Shown here one piece after another: positions 1 to 34,849 of a stretch of 64,000 nucleotides of DNA. The position numbers were made by a program, and so were the translations under genes. How positions within the stretch are numbered: position 1 is the first letter of the stretch; the number at the start of each line of letters is the position of its first letter. The notes under the pieces were generated by a model. It saw only the letters and a program-made list of their open reading frames with translations. It was not told the DNA's origin and ran no database searches. The DNA comes from Trypanosoma brucei (taxonomy: Eukaryota), in assembly GCA_000002445.1 (NCBI GenBank), contig CP000068.1, positions 992,001 to 1,056,000 of the forward strand. Reading direction: 5' to 3'.

Positions 1-910
1 ATTGAAGCACTTCGCATATCATCTTCTCGCAAAAGAGGCTTGTACTTCCTGGAAGAATGCAGACGGCAAAATCACCGTGTCTCTCCTGGTGTGGGAGCCG
101 AAGTGTGAAGAAGAAAGTGTCGCTGTGCGGGAGAATGCGGCGGACATTTACCCCCGCTCGGTGCTCATATCGTGTAAGGACCTCTACTGTCTCTTCATAT
201 GTTAGGCGAAAGACGGTGCCGTAAAATGCAATGAGGTCGAGGGCAACACGTCGCAGGTCATTTGCCGGCTGCGATATTGTACTACAGCTGATAACCTTAT
301 CAACCATCAGCAGATGCTTTTGTAGCTCCAGACTGTCACGGGCGCAGCGCTGCATGAACTTCTTCAGTATTTTACGCAAAGCGGCCAGATTCAGAGCCCT
401 GTATTGCAATATGGCCTGAGTTTTCACGTAGAGCTTCGGGATGTGTTCCTCGGGGCGTGCCCGGATCTCCTCTTCACTCATATTCTTTAGTTCTTCCACA
501 CCTGCCAGGAGATCCGCCTCGAGACACTGTTGGTATTGCTTAACCTTTGTGAACGACAGCTGGATATCTTTGAAGAATTTCACCTCCAGTTCGGAACGTC
601 TTTTCAGAAGTTCATCCAAAGAGCGTTTAGGGCTAAGGGAACTCCCCCCTGTTTGTGGCAATTTCATAGCCTCCGGTTGGTTAGCGAAGACGTCTTCAGT
701 TTCCGAAGCAGTGCTTGTGTCCGCCGCGGCCGCTCTCGCTTCAATCTCACGAACTCGTTCGATTTCTTTGCACAGTTGTTCCAACTCCTTCGCGATTGGC
801 TTCAGTTCAAAGTAAGCGACATAATTGTTGAGCGTGAAATCTGTATTGTACTCCGAAAGAAGGCGGCGGTGGAAGGCTTGCCCTTCAGAGCGACCCTTTC
901 CTGTGCGCAT
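1..910 (-). CDS. SPX-domain-like protein, 3'-truncated at the window edge (N-terminal ~303 aa visible)
   Basis: Hand-translated reverse strand from ATG at 910 (MRTGKGRSEGQAFHRRLLSEYNTDFTLNNYVAYFELKPIAKELEQL...). It stays open to position 1, so it is missing from the ORF track, which needs a stop. YVAYFELKPIAKEL resembles the SPX N-terminal Y[IV]xYxxLKxxIKxL signature. LQYRALNLAALRKILKKFMQRCARD resembles the SPX LNxTGFxKIxKKxDK motif. The lysine-rich low-complexity stretch upstream has no further in-frame Met. Confidence 0.45.
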   Translation of the reverse strand, partial: MRTGKGRSEGQAFHRRLLSEYNTDFTLNNYVAYFELKPIAKELEQLCKEIERVREIEARAAAADTSTASETEDVFANQPEAMKLPQTGGSSLSPKRSLDELLKRRSELEVKFFKDIQLSFTKVKQYQQCLEADLLAGVEELKNMSEEEIRARPEEHIPKLYVKTQAILQYRALNLAALRKILKKFMQRCARDSLELQKHLLMVDKVISCSTISQPANDLRRVALDLIAFYGTVFRLTYEETVEVLTRYEHRAGVNVRRILPHSDTFFFTLRLPHQERHGDFAVCILPGSTSLFCEKMICEVLQ

Positions 911-1627
911 GCGGTTCCTATTTTGTGTTATGTTATGTTTTTTATTTTGTTTTATTTTATTGAATATATCCTCGCTTTCTCTGCCTTTTTCCTCCCTCTC
1001 GGGCGTCTACGTGTCGCGAATTTGAGAGATAATTGCTCCAGTTTTTGCCCAGGGGTTTATGTTAAATTTCTTTGCCACGTTATTCCTTCCTCTCGTTGTT
1101 GGTTTCCCTCCGCTTAAATAAAAGAATGTCAATTGCAAAAACATAGATGGTGAGCAAATAAAACAAAGCAAAACAAAAGAAAACGGAAACAAAGCGGTTG
1201 CGGGGTGGATGGTTTAAAAAAAAAAAACGTGTTGGCGCCCTTCATTCCCTTATTGCCATCATGATGTGCATAATTTAAGGCACCTCATATCGGTTAGAAA
1301 AAAACATAATTGTACACGTATCAAACCGTAGGAAGAGAAGGACGGTGTATTTTTGTTATTGACTCTGAGAAAAGGGAAGAAAAAGAATGGAATAACGACT
1401 CATTTATTTTCTTCTCTTTTTCTCAGAGTCAATAACAAAAGTAAAAGTATATTGAACCAGTTTCTCCACAATGGGCCCACATGTTGTATCACATGACTAC
1501 AAAGAAAAAAAAAGTCTGGAATGGAAATAATACAAAAATATTTAAAAAAATGACAACAATCTAAAAACTCAAACAATTCCACAGTAAAGCAAAGATACTG
1601 CAATGTGAAGATATGTGCCCCCAAACT

Positions 1628-1630
<3 letters not shown>

Positions 1631-1667
<37 letters not shown>
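1631..1667. repeat. (TA)n microsatellite, ~18 units
   Basis: Perfect tatata run seen directly in the sequence. Confidence 0.95.
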
Positions 1668-1948: not shown

Positions 1949-2530
1949 TCATTGTGATTGACGTGCGATTCCCCAGAAGTCAGGCAGTGAGTTATGTATG
2001 GTACGAGCAACTTTACCACTTCCCTGCTTCCCGTTTATGCTTTCTTTGCCTTGTTCCTTCTTTATTGAATACAATGCGTTGTGACAAAAACCTTGGCGAA
2101 TAACAGACTCCCGCAACACGGATCTTGCGTACTCACCGTAATAATCAATTGGTGTTTGCCGCTCCGCACTGTTTTTGCAATCTCCCATGGGCACCTCAGT
2201 AACCCAAAGACCAAGCGCCTCTAATGCGTGGGACCGATCATTACCCGTCACTTTAGAATTGCTGCTGCTGCTGTTGCCGCCGCTAATGTAATGTTCGGCG
2301 TTTCTGAAACAAGGGCCCGCAGTGAGCGAAGGTAGCTTATGCAGAAGTTCTAGTTGTTTCTGTACGGTGCAGTGATACAATGCAGATGCCTGCATTTCAG
2401 CCGTAGGTGAACGTTCTCTTTTCCATGTTATCCCTACCATTGGGCTTGTTGAATGGCCGGTACTACTGACCTTTTCATTGCTTGACATGTTTCTGTGTGT
2501 GTCTCGTAGAGTTTTTCTCACCAGCGTCAT
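1949..2530 (-). CDS. hypothetical protein (~193 aa from Met at 2530)
   Basis: The ORF runs 1949..2707. Its first ~59 codons translate a pyrimidine-rich low-complexity stretch (FSFSFDFLICSLSC...) that looks like 5'UTR/polyY tract. I therefore take the internal Met at 2530 (MTLVRKTLRDTHRNMSSNEKV...) as the likely start. No family recognised. Confidence 0.4.
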   Translation of the reverse strand: MTLVRKTLRDTHRNMSSNEKVSSTGHSTSPMVGITWKRERSPTAEMQASALYHCTVQKQLELLHKLPSLTAGPCFRNAEHYISGGNSSSSNSKVTGNDRSHALEALGLWVTEVPMGDCKNSAERQTPIDYYGEYARSVLRESVIRQGFCHNALYSIKKEQGKESINGKQGSGKVARTIHNSLPDFWGIARQSQ

Positions 2531-2544
2531 ATGAAAGGACGCGT

Positions 2545-2680
2545 GTATACGGGGAAACGTATGAGAAGAATCAACGAAGGCAAGGGAGGGGGAAAAAAAC
2601 ACCGCAAAGGTTATGAAGGTACAAGAAAGTGAACAGATAAGGAAATCAAACGAAAAAGAAAAAACACACAAACATGGTCC
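2545..2680 (-). promoter_or_regulatory. polypyrimidine tract upstream of CDS 1949..2530
   Basis: The plus strand is purine-rich (gggaaacgtatgagaagaatcaacgaaggcaagggagggggaaaaaaacaccgcaaagg...gaaaaagaaaaaacacacaaac). The coding strand is therefore pyrimidine-rich immediately 5' of the proposed start. This is the same stretch the ORF finder mistranslated as an N-terminal extension. Confidence 0.35.
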
Positions 2681-2820
2681 TTTTCCTCCTTTTTCTCTAA
2701 CGTACAATTACAAACGCACAAATATAAGTGAAGTGGGTTAGCATTACAATCACATGATTAGTTCGCATTCTATAGGAAGTAAACTCTTCGCATGGGAAGC
2801 GTACATACTTGCTTGTTCCC

Positions 2821-3966: not shown

Positions 3967-4746
3967 TCACTGTGCTGTCGGTGGGGTGCCTGTCCCACCA
4001 CCCCTACCGAATCGTTTCACAGTATTCATGAATGCCATTGTGTGCATTTGAATGTTTCGCATTTTGGTTGCCTGCTCGGGCGTTAGGCGTTGGCCGCTCA
4101 TAATACTACGCTGTATATTTTCCATATCCGTACGCATTGCAGGTGTCAGAGATTGCATTGCCATCTGCATCATCATCATTTGCTCTTGGGAAGGGCCATG
4201 ACCATGACAATGTCCATGACTGTGTGAATGCCCGTGATCGTGGGAGTGACCGTGTTCGTGGGAATGAGAATGAGAATGAGAGGGATCATTACAATTATGA
4301 TTGCCCATTAACGGCTGCAACTCCGGCGTTGTCGCAGATATCGTTAATAGTTGCGATTCTTCCACCATACACATTGCCTTAATTAACGATGTTGTTTCAG
4401 GGTCAGGGTATCCCGTTACAGCCATCTTTAGTTCCTCCAAAATGCGGGCACCAGTTAATGAAGCGGTCGTATCGTCACCTGCATTACCATCGATATCGCC
4501 TCCCTCAACACTGCCTTGTTGGTTTTGTGCTCCTTGTTGCCTATTGGCGTTGTGATTGGTGAGGAACTCCACCTGCTTCTTCTCGTAAATGAGTAATAGT
4601 TCTAATAGAGAGGTCGGTATGGGTTCCTTCAATGCGGCAGCGCGGACACTTTCAATGAAGGCTGGTTTCTCCATCTCAGCCCTCAGTACTCGTACGAACT
4701 CATGCACTTCATCTCGTGTCAACGTCATGTTTGGCCTCGTCGCCAT
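3967..4746 (-). CDS. hypothetical protein with His-rich (HS/HG)n and Met-rich segments, putative metal-binding (259 aa)
   Basis: Translation contains PSHSHSHSHEHGHSHDHGHSHSHGHCHGHG (aa ~149-184) followed by QEQMMMMQMAMQ and further Met-dense sequence. The N-terminal ~140 aa look helical. The His block is encoded by an imperfect ATGAC/ATGAG-type repeat at ~4195-4302. Confidence 0.6.
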   Translation of the reverse strand: MATRPNMTLTRDEVHEFVRVLRAEMEKPAFIESVRAAALKEPIPTSLLELLLIYEKKQVEFLTNHNANRQQGAQNQQGSVEGGDIDGNAGDDTTASLTGARILEELKMAVTGYPDPETTSLIKAMCMVEESQLLTISATTPELQPLMGNHNCNDPSHSHSHSHEHGHSHDHGHSHSHGHCHGHGPSQEQMMMMQMAMQSLTPAMRTDMENIQRSIMSGQRLTPEQATKMRNIQMHTMAFMNTVKRFGRGGGTGTPPTAQ

Positions 4747-4947: not shown

Positions 4948-4984
4948 TATATATATATATATATAGATATATATATATATATAT
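4948..4984. repeat. (TA)n microsatellite with one interruption
   Basis: tatatatatatatatatagatatatatatatatatat seen directly. Confidence 0.95.
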
Positions 4985-6449: not shown

Positions 6450-6794
6450 TCACGCCATGCACCAAAGACACCCGCCTGTCTGCTCCACCATCGCATCAAT
6501 CACATCATCATCTTCCATACCCAACTCTTCTGGTGTTTTGGTTTCGTCAATTGGTGTTCCATCAAAAAGGAAGCGCACGCTGTTACGCGATATTCCCTGC
6601 TTCTTGCAATACGTATCAATGAGTTTTTTTAGGGCCGTGCGGGATTTGATACGGAAAAACATTTCCGCGCCATCAGCATTCACAACTTTTACAGCCACAA
6701 GTGCAGTTTCCTCCTTGCAGGTTCCTTCTGCCCCTTCACCTCCATTATTTGAGGGCTCACCGCCGTTGTTGGAGTTATGAGTGGGTTCGTCCAT
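6450..6794 (-). CDS. SUMO: small ubiquitin-like modifier (SUMO/Smt3 family)
   Basis: 114-aa translation with a ubiquitin-like fold signature (VKVVNADGAEMFFRIKSRTALKKLIDTYCKKQGISRNSVRFLFDGTPIDETKTPEELGMEDDDVIDAMVEQTGG). The di-Gly processing site is followed by a 6-aa tail (CLWCMA). There is an N-terminal Gly/Asn-rich extension, which is typical of SUMO. Confidence 0.9.
   Translation of the reverse strand: MDEPTHNSNNGGEPSNNGGEGAEGTCKEETALVAVKVVNADGAEMFFRIKSRTALKKLIDTYCKKQGISRNSVRFLFDGTPIDETKTPEELGMEDDDVIDAMVEQTGGCLWCMA

Positions 6795-7725: not shown

Positions 7726-7737
<12 letters not shown>

Positions 7738-7777
<40 letters not shown>
7738..7777. repeat. (AT)n microsatellite, ~20 units
   Basis: Perfect run seen directly. 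It lies in the spacer between SUMO and SEC11. Confidence 0.95.
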
Positions 7778-7848: not shown

Positions 7849-8475
7849 TTACATTCCGGTGTACCAGCACCATATCAATGCCAGTGGAACAAGCACAAGT
7901 TTTGCCCATGAGTGGTCTTCGGCAATTAGCGTAATAAAACCCACCCGCGGCACCAGCACGGCAACTTTCCCAATGATATCTTTTTTCTCTACCCAATGAT
8001 ATCCGCGCGGATATAATGTACGGTCATCCATTTCATTGTTATCCCCTTTCGTGAGGTACAAACGAGTCACACCGTCCTCAAGTAATCGAATGCGATGGAC
8101 GCGATGAACGATTGGAATTGTACGGTTGGGGAGAGAGAAAACAACGACATCCCCCATCGTGGGTTCGCCAATATTATGCAGAACAAGTAAGTCACCACGA
8201 AACATGAAGGGTTCCATACTTCCTGAGAGCACCACAACAAGTGGGCTTTCACAATCGGTCACCGCGATGGCTGTACGCCAACCAACAAAGAATGTGCAGA
8301 GAGTTACCAACATTAAGAAGGTGTTGCGTCTGTCCGGCATTGTATCAACAATGTCCTTAAAAGTTTTTTTAATGTAATTAATGGGTCCTGTTTGTGCAGA
8401 CATGGCTAATGATTCCACATGCTGCTCACGCAAAATCCGCAGCGCCGTCGCATCAGCCCGATGCAGCAATGACAT
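7849..8475 (-). CDS. SEC11: signal peptidase complex catalytic subunit SEC11 (type I signal peptidase, S26B)
   Basis: Translation contains the SEC11 signature ESPLVVVLSGSMEPFMFRGDLLVLHN (catalytic Ser in SGSMEP) and the conserved His region (IVHRVHRI). A TM anchor (FLMLVTLCTFFVGW) lies before the catalytic box. A ~45-aa N-terminal extension precedes it. The true start could be an internal Met, at aa 25 or aa 46. Confidence 0.88.
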   Translation of the reverse strand: MSLLHRADATALRILREQHVESLAMSAQTGPINYIKKTFKDIVDTMPDRRNTFLMLVTLCTFFVGWRTAIAVTDCESPLVVVLSGSMEPFMFRGDLLVLHNIGEPTMGDVVVFSLPNRTIPIVHRVHRIRLLEDGVTRLYLTKGDNNEMDDRTLYPRGYHWVEKKDIIGKVAVLVPRVGFITLIAEDHSWAKLVLVPLALIWCWYTGM

Positions 8476-20508: not shown

Positions 20509-23500
20509 TCACCTTCTTGAATCTTTTCTGTGCAATCGCGACGAACCTTCCTCCCTGTGGAACCTTTTCCCTTCATCATCTCCCTCCTCATCGTCACATG
20601 AACTCCACACATATGTAATCGGTATCATACGAACTACTGCCGTATCGATGTCTTCATCACGGTTCCGCTGGTCCGACAACCAGCGCTCAACTTCCTCAAC
20701 GGGGCGTCTAGAAGTCGTAGCAATGGCGGCTACTTGAATGTTATGATGAAGAGCAAAAGCTTGTGGTGTGACACGATACTCACGCCTGGTATCTGGATGA
20801 GTAAACACTAAGGAACCAGTAGGTGCACGAAAGTAATACAGACCCTTCGAAGCACTCAAATTACAAGTCCAGCGATAGGGAAGGTGCGGGAAAGGGTGGC
20901 CACGAGGGGGGTACGAACTAAACTTCAGGGTCTTCGACAGAGACCTATCCGAATGCCGCCGTTCTCTACTGCCTCGTGTGCTTCTGCTCCTGCTCCTGCT
21001 TCTGCTCCGTTTCCTCCTGCTCCGGCCGTGTCTACGGTGGCTATGATGTCTGCGGCGACGATCGCGTCTGCCACCGTCCCCATCAGTGTGTTCATTTCGC
21101 TCGCCATACCTCCTCCCGCCGCTTCCAACTGTATGATACGACACCTTCATGAGATCCAGAGCCGCCAGGTCCAGGGCTTCCAGGCGAATGCGCTGGTCGT
21201 TAATCCACTCCTCTGCAACCTCCTTGGTTATGATGGGAGGTTGTTCTCGGGAGGCATCATCAGTTCTACACTCCTGTGACATCCGATTCGCGTACTCAAG
21301 AACTTCGTCTAACGTCACCGCTGTCCTGGCTTCCAGCAGAAAAGCTTGCGGAGCTACCATAAACTCTGTTGCATCTGTCGGGTGTTTATAAGTGGCAGGG
21401 CTTTTGCCGTCCCTAAAGTAGTAGTACCCATACGAACGGCTCATTGCAGACGTCCAACCTGTCGGAAGCGGAGTGAAGGGCTCACCAGTTCGCGGGTAGT
21501 GACGCATTGCAGCCGTCCACTCCGGCAGCCATCGCCTTGTTGTAACGTGCTGTTGTGCATCAGAACTCGGTTGCGGATTGTAACTGGATGATGTGCCCAA
21601 TATGGCTGTTGTGATGTTGGCCGGCTGTTGAGGATACGGTGGAGGAAGCACCGTGGACGACAACTTCTTCTCGATTTGCTCATAGCGCTCCTCGGAGGCA
21701 GGTTTCGCAAAGTACGCACTTCGAAGAGATTGATATGCCTCCTCAGAAGGTTGAACGCGCAACGCTGCTTCAAGAAGATTCAAGGCGTCGTGATCAGTGA
21801 ATACGCACCGCACACCAGAGTTTTTGTCAACCTCTTTGTTCTTACCAATATCCCGGGGCATCAACTCCATGAGGCGCAAGAAAGCGCCGCAAAGACGAGC
21901 GGTTTCGACGCTCAGTGTGGGACTCACATTACTCTTCGAAAGGGCGACACGAATGAAATAGAAGTGGTCACGTGTCAGGCTAGTTTTTGAAGCGTACAGT
22001 ATGTTTGCGAATTCCTCGCCGTTGAAGAAGTCCGCATTTAGGTACAACCGCAGTAGTGACCGGTACACAGCACCTTCGATATCCCAAAGCATGAAACTGG
22101 ACTGTCTCGATACCTCTCCTTTCAAATTTTCTTCCTTCTTACCACTTTGAGGACACTCCGGCATTGACTGAAAAAACGTTTCCAATGCCTTCGTTTCTGC
22201 CAAGAACTCTGCAACACTCTCTCGCTGCTCACTCGACATGGCTGTCAGGAGCGCGTCAATCGCACTCCCTACTTGGGACGTCAGTCGACCCATTGCTGCT
22301 GCTTGTGATGTTTGTGCTGACTCACCAGCCAGGCTCTGGATGTGTTCGTGCAACCACATGGCTAAAGAGGCCCAGTGGCGCAAGAGGCGAAGCACAAGGG
22401 GGTTTGCTGCCGTGGGGTCGCTTCGGAGGGCCACGACACCAACAGACTGCACCACTGTTGTGTCTAACAAAAACGGAAGAATACAGCGACACAGAAGGGG
22501 AAGTAACTTCGCTGCATGGCAGTTGGCGAGTGCTGTCAGGATTGATATCGCTCCTTTGCTAGCCAGCAGGTAGGGTAGAAGCGTTGGAAGTTGTTTAATC
22601 TTCTTCGGCTGAGTCCCTTCAGTTTCCGTTGCTGGCTTACCCGCCGTGGTCGTTGCCTCAACAGAAGCTATTGTTTCTCCATCTTTTGGTCGGGCATATT
22701 GTTGGTCCCAAGCCGCCTGTTCATCATTGCAGCTACCGCTATTTTCCACCAGTAGTGCTTCCACAATACGCGACCGACCATCATTGAATTCCTCGCTGGT
22801 ACTAGTTAAAATAATTCGGATGTCGGCAGAGTGCTGCTGCAGAAATGAAACGATGTCTTCTACCTCAGGGCTCAAGGGTGGCACAGAGAAATCGCAAGGA
22901 ATGCTAGGAAACATCAATTCTTTATCACGCAGGCGGTCTTCACCTTCGTTGTTTGACGGCATTGCCTGTGCTGTCTCAATTGGACCTTCATATTCACCAT
23001 CGACGCGCGTTGTGGTTTCGCCGCTATTTAAAAGGTTTGTGTTTCCATTTTGCAAGGCCCCCAATGGGAACGCCAACTGCACCCTTTCCACAATTTTCGC
23101 AGCCAAACTATTCACATCATCCACCGTTATAGAAGACACACACGGTGCGCCATTTATCGTGATTGGTTGCACCTGCACGGCCACCCGCTCCTCTACTCGA
23201 ACTGTTGGAACGAAACTGCCAAATGTTGATTGCCCCAAAATAGAAGGCATAGAGGATGGCACGGCGTGACTATGGTGATGTTGAGGAATCGGGTAGCCGT
23301 ATGGTGGGGCTGCGTATTGCGCGTACGTCGATGGCGGATAATAGCCAGCCGCACCCCCGGGCGGACCTCCCCCTGACCCCCAATACATCATCTGAGGTGG
23401 TGGTTGTTGAGTTGTGTTATTGTCACCGGTATTTCCCTCCTCAGCATCCTCATTAGAGATTTCTTCTTCAACTAACTCAGGATAATCAGTTTTCGGTGCT

Positions 23501-25182
23501 TTCATTTCATTTATGTTACTCATGACAGCTGCTTGATAGGGAGGCGGCGTGTCCGTACGCGGTGGTGGGGGTGGTGGCGGTTGCTGCCAAGCGGCAGTTG
23601 GAGCAGCATAGCCATAATATGAACCGTAAGGAGGACATGATTGCGACCCACTATGTGGTATCGGTGCTGGCGTTGCACGGGGTGGAGCGGCAGCAACATG
23701 AGGCACGCTTACTTCAGCGGCAGGTGGTGCATGCGCCTCAGCACGCGGTGCTGACTGGCCACTGCGGTGCCGTGCGCTTGGCTTCTGCTGTTGCTCTGCT
23801 GTGCGCACGTCTTTTTGGCCATCCGCCTTCACCTCTTGAAGAAGTTCAGTGATGTCATTGTCGACGAAGTCCTCTTCACTTAGTTTTTGTGGTTTCACCC
23901 CGGTGCCCAAACCCCCAAATATATCAACTTCTTCCTTAGCGTTGCGAGACCACATTGGACTACCAGACCTTACCCACCTCCCTCCCCTCTTCTCCTCGAT
24001 GTCGCTGCTCTTGCCAAGGTAATCGTCGTCGTCAGCAGCCTCATCATCCTCGTATTTAGCCCCATTATTGCTATAATCATTAGTCTCACCAGTGTCATCC
24101 TTCACATCGCGCCGCAGCCTCGAATTCTCCCCGACGTCCGACCCTTTTTGGCGCCCCACCGCTACCCGCGGGCCTCCCTTGGATTGCGAGAACTCATCCA
24201 TACAGTCTGCCATTGTGATGAGCACCCCGCAACGCTGAAACAGCGTATATTGCACGAGAAACGAGCAGAAAGGGTTCCACAACCACTCATACACCGTCCC
24301 CGGTTTCTTTACCGCCACGTAAAAGACACCAGGCTCAAAACCGGAAATAACATTCATATCATTTTCCCCGTTTCCAGTTTCCGGTTGAAAGAGAGAACCA
24401 ATGTCCTCGCTTGTTATGCCACGTCCTCCATTAAGCAGAAATTGATAGTCCGTAACTTGAAACGTAGCGCACGGTGGCACTACCCGTTTGTTGCCACCAA
24501 AACTGCCGCCACTATTCAGGTCCCCATCGTCTTCCAACACAAAACCCGCACAAAGGCCAACATTGGTAAACTCCTCCATGACGCGCATTGCCAACCTCAC
24601 ATCACGCCCAAAGGTGACAACAAGCTGCATCAACTCTGTTCCCATCTTTACAAAACGCAGCGACGTTATTGCAGTTGTCGCCCGCTGATAGGCAAGGAGC
24701 TCAACGATATACTTCACAAGACTTCTGCCGTATTCCTTTGGTGTCATTCCCTCCGGCACAACACCGTCAAGTTGCAGCACTACAGACGCCGATGGTGTTA
24801 TATGCGGTGGCTGCTGCGCTTGTACAGGCGCAGAGGGTATGAGATGCAACTCTGGAACCGTAGCCGGCAACACCTGACGTGCACCGCTCCACGTTGGTGG
24901 GGGTGAGACAGGGTTACGCAACACCATCTGCTGGCAATATTGAAGAGCCTCTTCAGCAGTAGCCTCTTCCGATAGATATCCTGCGGGTTGCTGATGTTGC
25001 TGCTGTTGTGCCTCCTCTCCCACACCTTCTTGCGAAGCCTGAGCGGCCACCGCGGGGTACGCCGTGTTATCTCCATCCACAAAAGGGGCACCCGTTGCGG
25101 GAGGGTCCACCGCATCGGTGACGCCCATGTTGGCCCCCTGAAGCTGCGGTTGCTGTTGTTGTGGTCGTTTAAATGTGTACAT
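20509..25182 (-). CDS. large hypothetical protein with poly-Gln N-terminus, PPxY-type Pro-rich motifs, two WW-like modules and an RS-like Arg/Ser/His block
   Basis: ORF 20509..25500. The first 106 codons translate pyrimidine-rich UTR-like sequence, so the likely start is Met at 25182 (MYTFKRPQQQQPQLQ). The C-terminal region contains PLPTGWTSAMSRSYGYYYFRDGKSPATYKHP and HLPYRWTCNLSASKGLYYFRAPTGSLVFTHP. These fit a WW-like LPxGW...G.YYF...T.xxP pattern, with the second Trp replaced by Tyr or Phe. Each is followed by a helical PQAF segment. Between them lies RRDRRRRHHSHRRHGRSRRKRSRSRSRSRSTRGSRERRHSDRS. PPPPPPPRTDTPPPYQ and APPYGYP motifs lie upstream. Confidence 0.7.
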   Translation of the reverse strand: MYTFKRPQQQQPQLQGANMGVTDAVDPPATGAPFVDGDNTAYPAVAAQASQEGVGEEAQQQQHQQPAGYLSEEATAEEALQYCQQMVLRNPVSPPPTWSGARQVLPATVPELHLIPSAPVQAQQPPHITPSASVVLQLDGVVPEGMTPKEYGRSLVKYIVELLAYQRATTAITSLRFVKMGTELMQLVVTFGRDVRLAMRVMEEFTNVGLCAGFVLEDDGDLNSGGSFGGNKRVVPPCATFQVTDYQFLLNGGRGITSEDIGSLFQPETGNGENDMNVISGFEPGVFYVAVKKPGTVYEWLWNPFCSFLVQYTLFQRCGVLITMADCMDEFSQSKGGPRVAVGRQKGSDVGENSRLRRDVKDDTGETNDYSNNGAKYEDDEAADDDDYLGKSSDIEEKRGGRWVRSGSPMWSRNAKEEVDIFGGLGTGVKPQKLSEEDFVDNDITELLQEVKADGQKDVRTAEQQQKPSARHRSGQSAPRAEAHAPPAAEVSVPHVAAAPPRATPAPIPHSGSQSCPPYGSYYGYAAPTAAWQQPPPPPPPRTDTPPPYQAAVMSNINEMKAPKTDYPELVEEEISNEDAEEGNTGDNNTTQQPPPQMMYWGSGGGPPGGAAGYYPPSTYAQYAAPPYGYPIPQHHHSHAVPSSMPSILGQSTFGSFVPTVRVEERVAVQVQPITINGAPCVSSITVDDVNSLAAKIVERVQLAFPLGALQNGNTNLLNSGETTTRVDGEYEGPIETAQAMPSNNEGEDRLRDKELMFPSIPCDFSVPPLSPEVEDIVSFLQQHSADIRIILTSTSEEFNDGRSRIVEALLVENSGSCNDEQAAWDQQYARPKDGETIASVEATTTAGKPATETEGTQPKKIKQLPTLLPYLLASKGAISILTALANCHAAKLLPLLCRCILPFLLDTTVVQSVGVVALRSDPTAANPLVLRLLRHWASLAMWLHEHIQSLAGESAQTSQAAAMGRLTSQVGSAIDALLTAMSSEQRESVAEFLAETKALETFFQSMPECPQSGKKEENLKGEVSRQSSFMLWDIEGAVYRSLLRLYLNADFFNGEEFANILYASKTSLTRDHFYFIRVALSKSNVSPTLSVETARLCGAFLRLMELMPRDIGKNKEVDKNSGVRCVFTDHDALNLLEAALRVQPSEEAYQSLRSAYFAKPASEERYEQIEKKLSSTVLPPPYPQQPANITTAILGTSSSYNPQPSSDAQQHVTTRRWLPEWTAAMRHYPRTGEPFTPLPTGWTSAMSRSYGYYYFRDGKSPATYKHPTDATEFMVAPQAFLLEARTAVTLDEVLEYANRMSQECRTDDASREQPPIITKEVAEEWINDQRIRLEALDLAALDLMKVSYHTVGSGGRRYGERNEHTDGDGGRRDRRRRHHSHRRHGRSRRKRSRSRSRSRSTRGSRERRHSDRSLSKTLKFSSYPPRGHPFPHLPYRWTCNLSASKGLYYFRAPTGSLVFTHPDTRREYRVTPQAFALHHNIQVAAIATTSRRPVEEVERWLSDQRNRDEDIDTAVVRMIPITYVWSSCDDEEGDDEGKRFHREEGSSRLHRKDSRR
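20794..21465 (-). other. tandem WW-like / RS-like / WW-like module at the C-terminus of CDS 20509..25182
   Basis: WW-like #1 at ~21376..21465. Arg/Ser/His-rich block at ~20884..21072. The DNA there is an AGC/AGG/AGA (Ser/Arg) codon repeat on the coding strand. WW-like #2 at ~20794..20883. Confidence 0.5.
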
Positions 25183-31558: not shown

Positions 31559-33958
31559 TCAGCTGCTAGAGCTTTCATCCCTTTCAAAAAGCATCTGTTG
31601 AAGATCATTCACTTCACACGAAACAACAACACACCAATGGACAACGTCCAGCAGATTCCGCATCGCTGCGGTCCATTCACCATCGCTTACTTCGCCATAC
31701 CGTACCGATAGACCGCCCACTTTCTCTCCCTTTATAGCAAAAGGTGGTGATGACGGAGTAACCCACCCATGTTTCACAACTTCTGCTCTTGTATCTGCAT
31801 TGGCTGCAGTTTCTGACCGGTCGCCCCTTTCGCTGCGCTCCACACACTCACGCAACTGCTGCAGGCGCCGCCCCATCCACACAGTAATCTCACGGACACA
31901 CGAAGCAACACCAAAGCATGCTTTGTCAAACGTCTTTCTCGAGAAAAAATTATCTTTAATGAAAAAGTCAACGGTGATGTTGGGTGCGTCCGGTGGCGCG
32001 CTACGCATCTTCTTCAACTCAATCGTGCTCCTTTCTCCATTAGGATGCAGTATAACACTGCTGGTGTTAATGTTGTGCCATTCAATAAGGTGTTGGAGCA
32101 GAAGAAGAAGATAACCACAGGCGTTGTTGATCTCCGTTGTGCTTACAAAGCCTTGACGCTTGTCAAGCAAACCTCTCGTGAAGTGCAAGCACACTTGTTG
32201 TTGCATGGTCGTCAATGCGGTAAATTCACCAGCACCACAGCACGAAACATCCGACCTATCCTTTGAATCCTCCTTGTCTTCCGATATAGCTGGTACCGCC
32301 TCTTTATTTGTTGCAGGGGTCGCTACGACCTGGGTCTGTTTTGGGGTGTTTGGGGCGACTTTCCCAAGGCGTAGTCGGGCTATGGTTCCGATGCTGCCTT
32401 TCGTGTTAATTGGAAAGGCCAATGAGGTCGCACGGGTGCTGCGAGCGAGGGTGTAGCTCTGCGACATGTTTTGTATGGATTTTTCTAAGGCGGCTGCCGT
32501 TTCAGCAACCTCGTAAAACGCTTTCGTTTGATATGCAGTGGTCCTAATACTAACCTCAATTATCTTCCGCGAAGTTTCTTCACGTTGCGCTTTCAGGTCC
32601 GGGAGCATTTCATCAGCAACCTCCAAGTGTGCCCAAGAGATGTGTGCCAGGTGCGACTCTGCTTCGTCAACCTCAATACTCAACCTTTCCAGGCTCTCCT
32701 GTTGCTGCAAATCGAAAACGCCGGATTGTCTATCTTGCTGCTCTTTGCAGTTACTTTTATCCACATGGTAACCACTCGGCTGAACTTCCAACTCATCAGG
32801 AATCTCCGCTACCTCCATAAGCTTTGCCAAATCTTTCATAGCAATAGTTGTGGCATCCTTTTGTCCTGCTAGTGCAGATATCCAGCAACTAATGCATAAG
32901 GGCAGGTCTGTCGTACTTCCATGAACCACCTGCCGCATCAGTCGCTCGGAGAACTGAGTTAAAAGCGCCTTGTAAACGTCTGTCATCGGCGGGGGTGATA
33001 TGGTGCCGCACGATACTGTTCTTTCTAACGTCAGTGTCCGTGCTAACCCAATCCTGCTGCAGCTAACGTCGTTTAGTTCCGCATTTACATTCGTGGGGGC
33101 ATTTCCACTTCTTTGGGGTCGGGGAGACGGGGTTCTCAAAGCATGCGATTCATTTGACTGCAGGCCTCCGCCCATTTGAGCAAATGTGAACGAAAGGTGA
33201 GAGCCAGCCATGGAGTAATATTCATTGCTATCGTCACATTCCTCGAGGTTCGCAGCATTGGAACGATTACACGCCTCACCATCAGCAGCTCCACCACCAG
33301 ACCTTCCAGGAGACTCAGCTTCCACAATCCCTGCTATATGGGGAGTTGAAATATTAAGACTAGGGAATGGAGTTGATAGTATTAGGGACGCCAGCGGTAT
33401 CGGAAGTCGGTCCTGCAAAATGTTGCTGCAAGGGGCAGAGGCCAAAGCGGTAGAGGGATTTAACGCGCCAGATGAGGGAACTGTGCTGCCCTCTTGTACT
33501 GAACTCCAAACATCAGAAATATACGCGTCGTTTTTTTCCTTTGGAAACCATGCATACTGATGTGCAAAGGTTTCCGGTAACGTCGCCGTTATCTGGGCTC
33601 TCCCCATCGCTACCTTTTTCACATTACCGTAGGTTGTAGACGCTTCGCTTGCTCCGCCGCAATCGCTCTCGGTATACTGACTGGCCTCTCGACTATTTCC
33701 GTCTACAGACCATGGAGTGAATGGAGAGGGCGACAGCGCACCATATTTACCAGTGGCTGTCGTGCGTGATCCTTTGACCGCTGGGTGGAGCCTAACCTTC
33801 CCCTGCTGATGCCTTTCATTACGTTGAGAAGTAACAGGGAATGCCGCGCAGCACTCCTTTGCGCTCTTTACATCCTCGTCAGTGTTTGTTTGCGCTCTCG
33901 ATAAAAATTCGGGTTTTTTGTGTTTATATATTCTTTTTGCGCTGCCAGGAATGTTCAT
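31559..33958 (-). CDS. hypothetical protein (~800 aa from Met at 33958)
   Basis: ORF 31559..34126. The first 56 codons are Cys/Phe-rich and UTR-like. Met at 33958 (MNIPGSAKRIYKHKK) is the likely start. Ser/Thr-rich N-terminal half and helical C-terminal half. No family recognised. Confidence 0.6.
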   Translation of the reverse strand: MNIPGSAKRIYKHKKPEFLSRAQTNTDEDVKSAKECCAAFPVTSQRNERHQQGKVRLHPAVKGSRTTATGKYGALSPSPFTPWSVDGNSREASQYTESDCGGASEASTTYGNVKKVAMGRAQITATLPETFAHQYAWFPKEKNDAYISDVWSSVQEGSTVPSSGALNPSTALASAPCSNILQDRLPIPLASLILSTPFPSLNISTPHIAGIVEAESPGRSGGGAADGEACNRSNAANLEECDDSNEYYSMAGSHLSFTFAQMGGGLQSNESHALRTPSPRPQRSGNAPTNVNAELNDVSCSRIGLARTLTLERTVSCGTISPPPMTDVYKALLTQFSERLMRQVVHGSTTDLPLCISCWISALAGQKDATTIAMKDLAKLMEVAEIPDELEVQPSGYHVDKSNCKEQQDRQSGVFDLQQQESLERLSIEVDEAESHLAHISWAHLEVADEMLPDLKAQREETSRKIIEVSIRTTAYQTKAFYEVAETAAALEKSIQNMSQSYTLARSTRATSLAFPINTKGSIGTIARLRLGKVAPNTPKQTQVVATPATNKEAVPAISEDKEDSKDRSDVSCCGAGEFTALTTMQQQVCLHFTRGLLDKRQGFVSTTEINNACGYLLLLLQHLIEWHNINTSSVILHPNGERSTIELKKMRSAPPDAPNITVDFFIKDNFFSRKTFDKACFGVASCVREITVWMGRRLQQLRECVERSERGDRSETAANADTRAEVVKHGWVTPSSPPFAIKGEKVGGLSVRYGEVSDGEWTAAMRNLLDVVHWCVVVSCEVNDLQQMLFERDESSSS

Positions 33959-34849
33959 AGTGCAGACGGTACTTTGCCCTGCCAACGGCACGCTGCGGCG
34001 GCATACACAACACACGAACAGGGCACACACGGACCCTCCAGGATGGCTGCCGTCGCCCATGCAGACTAGCAACACGCAACAATGACGAAATGGTAGCCCA
34101 ACGCAGAAAAAGAAAATAAAGCACAAATAAATTATTGAGAAAGGGAACTATACCTCGGGGAAGGCGGCGGCAAGCTCAAGTAAAGGGGCCGAGCAACTCT
34201 TGTCAAAACACAAAAACGACTCCCGATAGTGGCTAACAGTGCAAAAATACCGAATGAAAATAAAACGTTTAGCAAAGAAAAAAAGACGAGAGAGAGAGAG
34301 AGATACCGCTCACTGAGTTTACCGTTGTGTATGGCCTTGCAGTCCGCACCGCATACAATCGCTGTCACTTCCCCCACCTCCTGCAATGAATATCCCTTGG
34401 CTCGTATTTAACTTCGCTTAAGTGAACAAAGTAAGAATCCAAGGACGGCAAGTACTAAATGTTACCTTATAACACTTTGAGTTCCCTCTTTTCCTCGTGG
34501 ACGAAACGCTAACTGAAAAACGAAATGGGGGAATCCAGGAAAACAACACGAAAAGGAGTGTACTGCCAAGTAACGTCGGGAACGAAAGTACACAAAGAGG
34601 ATTTTCAAGAAATATTACACATTATTTAACCTCACAGGTGTGAACAGAGAATTTCATAACCTCACCACCACGTCTTCCTTGTAACTCCCTTCATCAACAT
34701 GTTATCTACTGTGCGTCAATACTGCAAGCAGAGTGCAAAAAAGGTTCCTCTATCCATGCACTTTGCTTCAAGGCAAAGTTTGTCACATCATTGTCAAAAT
34801 CATAACCGTATCACCAACCCCAAGATCACGTGGCACCAGAACCGATAGT

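What the first reader, a model, noticed from the sequence alone, without database searches (positions are those of the whole stretch)
1..910. SPX-domain-like gene at the window edge missed by the ORF track
The reverse strand is open from the ATG at 910 to position 1. It encodes sequence with SPX-like N-terminal (YVAYFELKPIAKEL) and third-subdomain (LNLAALRKILKKF) signatures. SPX domains sense inositol pyrophosphates and are fused to phosphate or polyphosphate handling modules (VTC, Pho91, XPR1). The downstream domain that defines function lies outside the window.
Basis: partly seen in the sequence, partly recalled or inferred. Interest (0 to 1): 0.5.

Follow-up and report, generated by a model that had tools for sequence, protein, structure and literature searches.

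The report
Trypanosome SPX-fused PRPP synthetase-like gene
The open frame at the window edge is the first 46% of an already annotated Trypanosoma brucei gene (Q57Z76), whose T. cruzi orthologue was published as TcPRPS4: a phosphate-signal-sensing SPX domain fused to a PRPP-synthetase-like body that has lost most canonical catalytic residues.

Summary
The minus strand is open from the ATG at 908-910 to the window edge (303 codons). These 303 residues are 100% identical to residues 1-303 of T. brucei brucei TREU927 Q57Z76, a 653-aa "ribose-phosphate pyrophosphokinase, putative".

The SPX reading is supported, but not by Pfam on this protein alone (17.8 bits against a 27.8 cut-off). It rests on three other tests:
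- A family profile hits essentially only SPX proteins in the PDB (E down to 3.7e-9).
- Five of the six canonical ligand-binding residues are present.

The fusion partner is none of the classical ones. It is a PRPP-synthetase-like module, and it begins inside the window at about residue 281.

This architecture is already published as TcPRPS4 (Mantilla et al. 2020 preprint). That paper reports it as kinetoplastid-specific, enriched on a 5-IP7 analogue resin, and lists Q57Z76 in the same clade. It is therefore already known.

What I add is that every full-length family member examined lacks the RQD motif, a conserved His130, the K194/R196 catalytic pair and the ribose-5-phosphate loop. The module is therefore probably a non-catalytic, Prs1/PAP-like regulatory subunit. 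That is inference and is untested.

The parts
2..910 (-). 5' part of the coding sequence: codons 1-303 of a 653-codon gene, T. brucei Q57Z76 / AAZ11430.1, the orthologue of TcPRPS4. Base 1 is the first base of codon 304.
   Evidence: Open frame. 303/303 identity to P0080 = Q57Z76. The frame continues to a stop in the syntenic T. equiperdum locus L001:12512-14473.
908..910 (-). Start codon ATG
   Evidence: First ATG after the in-frame TAA at 929-931. The N-terminus is conserved across Trypanosoma species.
146..880 (-). SPX domain, about residues 11-255: short helix 13-20, long helices 33-72, 98-142 and 157-188, then helices 194-208, 219-233 and 238-252.
800..814 (-). Y33-x-x-x-K37, the two N-terminal residues of the SPX phosphate-binding cluster. 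They correspond to XPR1 and Vtc4 Y22/K26.
   Evidence: HMMER alignment to XPR1. Conserved in 16 of 18 family members. Cluster definition from PMC9911596.
620..715 (-). Variable, low-confidence loop between SPX helices (residues about 66-97). In other kinetoplastids this is the site of inserts reaching hundreds of residues.
   Evidence: pLDDT 52-55 in the model. Gapped, length-variable columns in the family alignment.
347..400 (-). SPX helix alpha-4 basic motif R171-ALNLAALRKILKKFMQ-R188. K180 and K183 are lysine-surface-cluster positions and K184 is the third phosphate-binding-cluster residue. The third lysine-surface-cluster position is Q187.
   Evidence: Alignment to XPR1 FRKILKK (K158/K161/K162). 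Family table. Definition.
71..145 (-). Conserved linker between the SPX and PRS-like modules (residues 256-280, RRILPHSDTFFFTLRLPHQERHGD). It has no confident structure in the isolated fragment.
   Evidence: Invariant across T. brucei, T. congolense and T. cruzi. pLDDT below 50 for 269-290.
2..70 (-). Start of the PRPP-synthetase-like N-terminal domain (residues 281-303). The rest of the domain lies beyond the window edge.
   Evidence: Pfam Pribosyltran_N matches residues 284-382 of the full-length protein at 74.4 bits. The region aligns to human PRPS1 residues 4 onwards.
1150..1227 (-). Pyrimidine-rich tract (a 12-T run followed by a C/T-rich stretch) about 240-320 nt upstream of the ATG. It is a candidate trans-splicing signal for this gene.
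   Evidence: Read directly. The function is inferred from general knowledge of trypanosome mRNA processing and was not tested.

Best explanation
The ORF is the first 303 of 653 codons of the T. brucei gene for Q57Z76, the orthologue of T. cruzi TcPRPS4. The protein has an N-terminal SPX domain, a conserved linker, and a two-lobed PRPP-synthetase (PRS) fold interrupted by an insert at the catalytic loop. Identity and architecture are shown here. The proposed mechanism has three steps. (1) The SPX domain binds inositol pyrophosphates such as 5-IP7, and so reports cellular phosphate status. This is inferred from an intact phosphate-binding cluster and from published enrichment of the T. cruzi orthologue on a 5PCP-IP5 resin. 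(2) The PRS-like module does not itself make PRPP, because the residues that do the chemistry in canonical enzymes are missing in every family member. It keeps the elements that sit at inter-subunit sites. This is inferred from sequence. (3) The protein therefore acts like yeast Prs1/Prs5 or human PAP39/41. It would be a non-catalytic subunit that assembles with the canonical PRPS paralogues and makes PRPP supply responsive to inositol pyrophosphate. PRPP supply matters because these parasites depend on purine salvage. This step is entirely inferred, and no interaction data exist.
For: Identity: 303/303 identical to Q57Z76. Nine other window proteins are exact TREU927 matches with serially ordered accessions. 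Q57Z76 is listed in the PRPS4 clade of the preprint.

Architecture: Pribosyltran_N scores 74.4 bits and Pribosyl_synth 76 bits on the full-length protein. The same architecture is seen in ten orthologues.

Non-catalytic reading, from the 21 family members aligned to human PRPS1: all lack RQD and the six residues after it. His130 is variable and is Pro in the T. brucei clade. SPDAGG becomes APNGAG. DDMADTCGT becomes a family-specific D-T-x-V-D-E-A. No register restores K194-x-R196, and a 25-280-residue insert follows in most members. K194A and R196A abolish human PRS1 activity, and F35 and H130 are needed for ATP binding. Inserts at this same loop make yeast Prs1 and Prs5 incapable of PRPP synthesis, and human PAPs lack an ATP site.

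Retained elements: FxNGE, VRG(D/E)DV and the C-terminal H-T-E-N-x-L-x-x-L-F. The PRS catalytic site is formed by the dimer, and the Pi/ADP site by three protomers including residues 306-315.

Precedent for SPX fused to a dead enzyme domain: Cryptococcus Pho81 GDE.
Against: No enzyme assay, binding assay or interaction data exist for the T. brucei protein. The preprint treats the protein as an enzyme, though it calls the activity 'putative'. The protein passes the broad TIGR01251 ribose-phosphate diphosphokinase subfamily cut-off, 172.9 against 113, so homology-based annotation calls it a PRS. Some members keep individual catalytic-site residues: His130 in P0004-P0006, and Asp171 in several. 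A basic pair TAV(K/R)(R/K) could supply one of the two loop residues. One KSC lysine is replaced by Q187, and Pfam SPX is below threshold for this protein. Resin enrichment in lysate does not prove direct binding or binding through SPX. All PRS-module features lie outside the window and were read from the identical or near-identical full-length proteins.
Confidence: 0.55

Rival explanations
1. Same gene and architecture, but the PRS module is a genuine, divergent PRPP synthetase. Its activity is switched directly, in cis, by inositol pyrophosphate binding to its own SPX domain. This is the reading in the TcPRPS4 preprint.
For: Annotated as ribose-phosphate pyrophosphokinase in all source records. 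Both PRS Pfam domains and the TIGR01251 subfamily model pass their cut-offs. The overall fold-defining residues, the FxNGE ATP-site strand, D220 and D224 are retained. The preprint assumes this activity.
Against: RQD, K194/R196, the PPi loop glycines and the DTCGT 5-phosphate-binding loop are missing in all 21 members. Single substitutions K194A or R196A already abolish human PRS1 activity. The catalytic loop carries an insert at the site where inserts inactivate yeast Prs1 and Prs5. All bacterial equivalog models fail by wide margins.
Confidence: 0.33
2. The N-terminal domain has the SPX fold but no longer senses inositol pyrophosphate. It serves another role, such as oligomerisation or partner binding, so the protein is not a phosphate-signal receptor.
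For: Pfam SPX is below threshold. One KSC lysine is lost (Q187). The middle KSC position is a lysine in only 6 of 18 aligned sequences. Two divergent members (P0019, P0022) have lost Y33, K37 and K184. The most conserved part of the N-terminal half is not the basic patch but residues 189-262.
Against: In T. brucei the full PBC and two of three KSC residues are present, and Y33, K37 and K184 are kept in 16 of 18 members. The T. cruzi orthologue was enriched on the 5-IP7 analogue resin alongside the known SPX proteins Vtc4 and Pho91.
Confidence: 0.1
3. The open frame is a chance ORF or a truncated pseudogene at the window edge.
For: None beyond the fact that the ORF is cut by the window and was absent from the ORF list.
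Against: 100% identity to an annotated 653-aa protein. The frame is intact to its stop in T. equiperdum. Full-length orthologues exist in T. b. gambiense, T. congolense, T. rangeli, T. cruzi marinkellei, Angomonas and Cryptobia. The T. cruzi orthologue was detected by mass spectrometry.
Confidence: 0.01

Closest known systems
TcPRPS4 (TcCLB.507809.30), the SPX-domain PRPP synthetase of Trypanosoma cruzi (Mantilla et al., bioRxiv 10.1101/2020.01.09.900860)
   Same: Orthologous. It has the same SPX (residues 11-188 in the paper), Pribosyltran_N, insert and C-terminal PRS layout. A T. cruzi fragment is 74% identical over the overlap. Q57Z76 is named in the paper's PRPS4 clade.
   Different: The T. 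brucei protein is shorter (653 aa, against 744 aa in T. cruzi marinkellei) because the catalytic-loop insert is smaller. No experiment has been reported on the T. brucei protein. The paper assumes catalytic activity, and the motif analysis here argues against it.
SPX domains of XPR1, Vtc4, Pho90/Pho91, PHO1 and plant SPX1/2 (Pfam PF03105)
   Different: About 12-18% sequence identity, below Pfam's threshold for this protein. One KSC lysine is replaced by Gln. An extra conserved helical and linker segment (residues 189-280) follows. The fusion partner is a nucleotide-metabolism fold rather than a phosphate transporter, polyphosphate polymerase, RING or CDK-inhibitor module.
Yeast Prs1 and Prs5, and human PRPS-associated proteins PAP39 and PAP41
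   Same: PRS-fold proteins that carry an insert at the catalytic flexible loop and/or lack an ATP catalytic site. They are reported unable to make PRPP themselves and to function bound to catalytic PRS subunits. The kinetoplastid family has its insert at the same loop and lacks the same classes of residue.
   Different: None of these has an SPX domain. Whether the trypanosome protein associates with catalytic PRPS paralogues is unknown. By sequence it is not specifically closer to PAPs than to PRPS1: E-values are 2e-37 for PRPS1 against 2.7e-34 and 2.1e-32 for the PAPs. Any loss of catalysis is therefore probably independent.
Pho81 of Cryptococcus neoformans (SPX, ankyrin repeats and an inactive GDE domain)
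   Same: An SPX sensor fused to an enzyme-derived domain that lacks catalytic residues and works by regulating a partner complex when IP7 binds. This is the same logic proposed here.
   Different: The degenerate enzyme fold and the partner (the Pho85-Pho80 CDK) are unrelated. This is an analogy only.

Membership tests
SPX domain (Pfam PF03105) | Match to the Pfam SPX model at or above its gathering score (27.8 bits) | tested here: not met
   17.8 bits on the window fragment and 14.4 bits on the full-length protein. It is met in three orthologues: P0004 34.4, P0013 28.2 and P0018 28.1 bits.
SPX domain (Pfam PF03105) | Significant profile-level sequence homology to experimentally solved SPX domains | tested here: met
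   An 18-sequence N-terminal profile hits essentially only SPX proteins: PHO1;H1 3.7e-9, XPR1 SPX 1.2e-8, Pho90 7.4e-5, Vtc4 7.5e-5, OsSPX2 2.2e-4. The two non-SPX rows are at E > 0.1.
SPX domain (Pfam PF03105) | SPX fold: N-terminal helical hairpin packed on a long helical bundle | tested here: met
SPX domain (Pfam PF03105) | Phosphate-binding cluster Tyr, Lys, Lys (ScVtc4 Y22, K26, K133) | tested here: met
   Y33, K37 and K184 by alignment to XPR1. Each is conserved in 16 of 18 family members. Definition.
SPX domain (Pfam PF03105) | Lysine surface cluster of three Lys on helix alpha-4 (ScVtc4 K129, K132, K136) | tested here: inconclusive
   K180 and K183 are present. The third position is Q187, with a conserved R188 beside it.
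SPX domain (Pfam PF03105) | Binds inositol polyphosphate or pyrophosphate ligands | not testable with these tools
   Only indirect evidence: the T. cruzi orthologue was enriched on a 5PCP-IP5 resin.
PRPP synthetase, class I (EC 2.7.6.1) | Pribosyltran_N and Pribosyl_synth domains above Pfam thresholds, and the TIGR01251 subfamily model | tested here: met
   74.4 and 76 bits, against cut-offs of 25 and 27. TIGR01251 scores 172.9 against 113. All equivalog models fail. Only residues 281-303 of this module lie inside the window.
PRPP synthetase, class I (EC 2.7.6.1) | Catalytic-loop Lys194 and Arg196, conserved in all three PRS classes and each essential for activity | tested here: not met
   No alignment register gives K-x-R. 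The family motif is TAV(K/R)(R/K), followed by an insert. Essentiality; roles.
PRPP synthetase, class I (EC 2.7.6.1) | ATP-site residues: the RQD motif with its flexible loop, and His130 of DLH | tested here: not met
   RQD plus the six following residues are absent in all 21 members. His130 is Pro in the T. brucei clade and variable elsewhere.
PRPP synthetase, class I (EC 2.7.6.1) | Ribose-5-phosphate loop DDxxDTxGT and diphosphate loop SPDxGG | tested here: not met
   The loops read DTSVDEATE and APNGAG in the T. brucei clade. The family consensus is D-T-x-(I/V)-D-E-A. That these loops are defining rests on my knowledge of PRS structures and on the motif naming.
PRPP synthetase, class I (EC 2.7.6.1) | Catalyses ATP + ribose-5-phosphate -> PRPP + AMP | not testable with these tools
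   Never assayed. The preprint calls the activity putative.
Non-catalytic PRS-like subunits (yeast Prs1/Prs5, human PAP39/PAP41) | PRS fold with a disrupted catalytic flexible loop and/or missing ATP catalytic site | tested here: met
   There is an insert of 25-280 residues at the catalytic loop, and ATP-site residues are lost. The feature is as described.
Non-catalytic PRS-like subunits (yeast Prs1/Prs5, human PAP39/PAP41) | Physical assembly with catalytic PRS subunits | not testable with these tools
   No interaction data were found.
Kinetoplastid PRPS4 orthologue group (TcPRPS4) | N-terminal SPX plus PRS module with a non-homologous insert, orthologous to TcCLB.507809.30 | tested here: met
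   The window protein equals Q57Z76, which the preprint lists in the PRPS4 clade. It is 74% identical to a T. cruzi fragment. Orthologues share the same architecture.

The most novel reading that the evidence does not exclude
PRPS4 is not an enzyme. It would be a catalytically dead, SPX-bearing regulatory subunit that co-assembles with the canonical PRPP synthetases of kinetoplastids, putting PRPP production, and so purine salvage and pyrimidine synthesis, under direct inositol-pyrophosphate and phosphate control. That would be a link between the SPX signalling system and nucleotide metabolism not known in other eukaryotes, and it would revise the published 'SPX-containing enzyme' description.
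Probability: 0.5. Interest if true: 0.55.

Novelty: already known. Interest (0 to 1): 0.3.

Why it matters
The finding itself is ordinary: the gene is annotated in TREU927, and the SPX-PRPS fusion was described in 2020. The protein still has some biological interest. SPX domains normally control phosphate transporters, polyphosphate synthesis and phosphate-starvation signalling, and here one is attached to the gateway of nucleotide synthesis. This occurs in parasites that cannot make purines de novo and rely on PRPP-dependent salvage (a point from my general knowledge). If the PRS-like body is a non-catalytic regulator, as the motif analysis suggests, then the published description of it as an enzyme needs revising. 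It would also give a parasite-specific regulatory interface that is absent from the host.

Tried and rejected
- Single-sequence phmmer of the fragment against the PDB gave only ATP synthase alpha at E 0.14, which I treated as chance. SPX appeared only with a family profile.
- The Pfam DUF1688 hit at E 0.17 was dismissed as chance.
- The first AlphaFold run, on a 3-sequence alignment, gave pLDDT 59.8 with the N-terminus below 50. I did not use it for fold search. A 27-sequence alignment gave pLDDT 83.
- The look-up of encoding contigs on the 259-aa neighbour found no record. The 208-aa neighbour did work.
- The search for homologous proteins returned only two partial proteins and not the T. brucei protein itself. 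Identity had to be established through neighbours, synteny and a cluster look-up.
- The review PMC7381174 contains no PBC or KSC definitions. I took the definition from PMC9911596 instead.
- MAFFT placed human K194/R196 against residues downstream of the insert. I judged that register unreliable and examined the loop by anchoring on flanking motifs.
- Searches for PRPS4, Q57Z76 and my guessed gene IDs found no follow-up paper beyond the 2020 preprint. The journal version of that preprint is not in the searchable library, so later functional data could exist that I could not see.

Full report

Yes. Reading window 1-910 on the minus strand gives an ATG at 908-910 followed by 302 sense codons with no stop. 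The frame runs off the window. An in-frame TAA sits seven codons upstream at 929-931, so this is the first possible start. The N-terminal peptide MRTGKG.SEGQAFHRRLLSEY is conserved in other trypanosomes. The ORF was absent from the ORF list for a mechanical reason: the ORF listing does not report ORFs that run off an end.

**2. Where does the window come from, and which gene is this?**

All large ORFs lie on the minus strand and the cumulative GC skew falls steadily. That is typical of a kinetoplastid polycistronic unit. Nine complete window proteins are exact matches to T. brucei brucei TREU927 proteins on a 1,608,198-bp contig, and their accessions Q57Z61 to Q57Z74 run in order along the window.

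I used the 208-aa neighbour as a handle to recover the syntenic T. equiperdum locus L001.
- It is identical to the window at 1098 of 1100 aligned bases.
- There the frame continues to a stop, giving 653 residues.
- The 90% cluster of that protein contains AAZ11430.1 / XP_844989.1 / Q57Z76, [quoted passage not shown].
- Its first 303 residues are 100% identical to the window translation.

The window therefore holds 46% of an annotated gene.

**3. Is the N-terminal region an SPX domain?**

Pfam SPX scores 17.8 bits on the fragment and 14.4 on the full length, against a gathering score of 27.8. I therefore ran stronger tests.

- *Family size and architecture.* The exhaustive representative search found only 28 family members among 1.84 billion proteins. 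Ten full-length members share one architecture, and SPX clears the threshold in three of them at 34.4, 28.2 and 28.1 bits.
- *Sequence profile.* A profile of 18 N-terminal regions, searched against all PDB sequences, hit essentially only SPX proteins. The hits were PHO1;H1 (3.7e-9), the XPR1 SPX domain (1.2e-8), Pho90, Vtc4, rice SPX1/2 and Vtc3. The only two non-SPX rows are at E > 0.1.
- *Fold.* An AlphaFold model built on a 27-sequence alignment is confident (mean pLDDT 83, pTM 0.75, residues 11-260 mostly above 90).
  - In Foldseek the top 34 hits are all SPX domains, with a target-normalised TM-score of 0.82 to the XPR1 SPX crystal structure 8tyv_A.
- *Ligand residues.* The ligand surface of SPX is defined in ScVtc4 as a phosphate-binding cluster (Y22, K26, K133) and a lysine surface cluster (K129, K132, K136) (PMC9911596). 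Using the HMMER alignments to XPR1, these map as follows:

| Cluster | ScVtc4 residues | Window residues | Status |
|---|---|---|---|
| Phosphate-binding cluster | Y22, K26, K133 | Y33, K37, K184 | complete |
| Lysine surface cluster | K129, K132, K136 | K180, K183, Q187 | two of three; R188 is adjacent |

Across 18 aligned sequences, Y33, K37 and K184 are each kept in 16. K180 is Lys in 14 and Arg in 3. K183 is Lys in only six of the 18: the three Trypanosoma sequences, P0004, P0018 and P0020.

I conclude that this is a divergent but genuine SPX domain with a largely intact ligand site.

**4. What is it fused to?**

It is fused to none of the classical partners. The T. cruzi fragment P0002 overlaps the last 115 window residues at 74% identity and continues into a PRPP synthetase N-terminal domain. 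On the full-length protein, Pfam finds Pribosyltran_N (residues 284-382, 74.4 bits) and Pribosyl_synth (540-651, 76 bits). NCBIfam's broad TIGR01251 model passes, while all equivalog models fail. The PRS-like module begins inside the window, at residues 281-303 (window 2-70).

**5. Is this known?**

Yes. Mantilla et al. (bioRxiv 10.1101/2020.01.09.900860) describe TcPRPS4.
- They call it an SPX domain-containing phosphoribosyl transferase / PRPP synthetase, with SPX at residues 11-188.
- It has an extra non-homologous stretch.
- They state it is unique to and conserved across Kinetoplastida.
- It was recovered on a 5PCP-IP5 (5-IP7 analogue) resin with at least 4-fold enrichment.
- Their phylogeny lists T. 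brucei Q57Z76 in the PRPS4 group.

They did not assay activity and call it "putative". I found no other paper on the protein.

The named family members in my search are all kinetoplastids: T. rangeli, Angomonas deanei, Cryptobia borreli, T. congolense, T. cruzi marinkellei, T. b. gambiense and T. equiperdum. One further member is an unnamed MMETSP transcript, and the rest are unnamed environmental sequences. The restriction to kinetoplastids is therefore consistent with the data but not proven.

**6. How does it most likely work?**

I aligned 21 family members (including T. equiperdum and the truncated 438-aa P0020, which lacks the C-terminal lobe) with human PRPS1. PRPS1 residues 4-185 and 197-311 were taken from the alignments printed.

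Lost:
- RQD and the six residues after it, which shortens the regulatory loop (all 21 members).
- His130, which is variable and is Pro in the T. brucei clade.
- The SPDAGG diphosphate loop.
- The DTCGT end of the ribose-5-phosphate loop, replaced by a family-specific conserved D-E-A.
- The K194-x-R196 pair. No register restores it. The family motif TAV(K/R)(R/K) is followed in most members by a 25-280-residue insert.

Retained:
- F35-x-N37-G-E39.
- VRG(D/E)DV.
- The C-terminal H-T-E-N-x-L-x-x-L-F.

The literature supports reading these losses as inactivating.
- K194A and R196A each abolish human PRS1 activity, both residues are conserved in all three PRS classes, and F35 and H130 are needed for ATP binding (PMC4363470).
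- R196 contacts ribose-5-phosphate and K194 supports transfer. The catalytic site forms only in the bowed dimer, and the Pi/ADP allosteric site is built from three protomers including residues 306-315.
- Inserts at the same catalytic loop render yeast Prs1 and Prs5 incapable of PRPP synthesis. Those proteins work only as partners of insert-free subunits. Human PAP39 and PAP41 likewise lack an ATP catalytic site (PMC9221600).

The degenerate motifs are themselves conserved across the family, which argues for a maintained non-catalytic function rather than decay. My best-supported reading has three parts:
- The SPX domain senses inositol pyrophosphate.
- The PRS-like body is a non-catalytic, Prs1/PAP-like subunit.
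- The protein modulates the canonical PRPS paralogues. Three are listed for T. cruzi and T. brucei.

Identity, architecture, SPX fold and motif loss are shown here. Ligand binding (supported by the orthologue's resin enrichment), lack of catalysis and hetero-assembly are inferred. Cryptococcus Pho81 is a precedent for this logic: it has an SPX domain fused to a GDE domain lacking catalytic residues, and it stabilises a partner complex when IP7 binds.

**7. Rivals**

- *Active enzyme.* The main rival is the published assumption that the protein is an active PRPP synthetase regulated in cis by its SPX domain. It is supported by annotation and by domain-level homology. The motif losses argue against it. 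I give it about one chance in three.
- *Non-sensing SPX.* A second rival is that the SPX fold no longer binds ligand. The lost KSC lysine and two divergent members without the PBC support this. The intact PBC in T. brucei and the resin enrichment of the orthologue argue against it.
- *Chance ORF or pseudogene.* This is excluded.

**8. Verdict**

Novelty is "already known" and interest is modest. The only new element is the argument that the PRS-like module is probably a pseudoenzyme, which is testable with a simple enzyme assay and a co-purification experiment.

Noticed in passing
window 3967-4746 (- strand): A 259-aa protein with a striking His-rich tract (HSHSHSHEHGHSHDHGHSHSHGHCHGHG) and a Met/Gln-rich tail. 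It has no Pfam match. The His tract is encoded by an imperfect 18-bp tandem repeat at 4222-4267. A possible metal-binding role is my speculation. The exact-sequence look-up found no record, although the same-length gene is called in the T. equiperdum locus.
   Followed up: partly
window 1630-1667, 4948-4984, 7728-7777: Three pure (AT)n microsatellites of 19-25 copies lie in intergenic regions. The last one produces the spurious 'IYIYIY' ORFs.
   Followed up: no
window 31559-34126 (- strand): An 855-aa protein with a C-terminal APG6/Beclin BARA domain (72.6 bits), likely the trypanosome ATG6/Vps30 homologue. It has a long N-terminal extension with no recognised domain.
   Followed up: no
window 6450-6794 and 7849-8475 (- strand): The SUMO gene (exact match to Q57Z72; its solved structure 2K8H is in the same cluster) and the type I signal peptidase / SEC11 gene lie just upstream of the finding in the same transcription direction.
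   Followed up: yes
window 1-64000: Every ORF of 200 aa or more that matches a known protein is on the minus strand, and cumulative GC skew falls steadily to -2.29. The whole window appears to be one polycistronic transcription unit. The plus-strand ORFs at 22646-23269 and 23887-24906 overlap a 1663-aa minus-strand ORF and are probably spurious.
   Followed up: partly
window 1949-2707 (- strand); L001:10960-11499: The ORF list shows a 252-aa TTG-start ORF here, but the gene called in the T. equiperdum assembly is 179 aa. It has no Pfam match. It is the immediate upstream neighbour of the PRPS4 gene.
   Followed up: partly
family members P0006, P0008, P0012, P0014 (not in the window): In some kinetoplastid orthologues the loop between the SPX helices (window residues about 66-97) is expanded by hundreds of low-complexity residues. 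The N-terminal regions reach 449-610 aa, and one cluster representative is 2608 aa long. Whether the 2608-aa protein is a real fusion or a gene-model artefact was not checked.
   Followed up: no
family members P0019 and P0022 (environmental, not in the window): These two divergent members have lost the SPX phosphate-binding cluster (Y33 to V/F, K37 to E/C, K184 to G/A) while keeping the rest of the domain. This suggests ligand sensing has been lost in some lineages.
   Followed up: no
window 189-262 of the protein (window coordinates about 125-346, - strand): The most conserved stretch of the N-terminal half is not the basic ligand patch. It is the segment after it (C-A-x-D-S-L-x-L-Q ... Y-G-x-V ... 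Y-E ... R-I-L-P), which spans the last SPX helices and the linker. It may be the surface that couples SPX to the PRS-like body, but nothing was tested.
   Followed up: no
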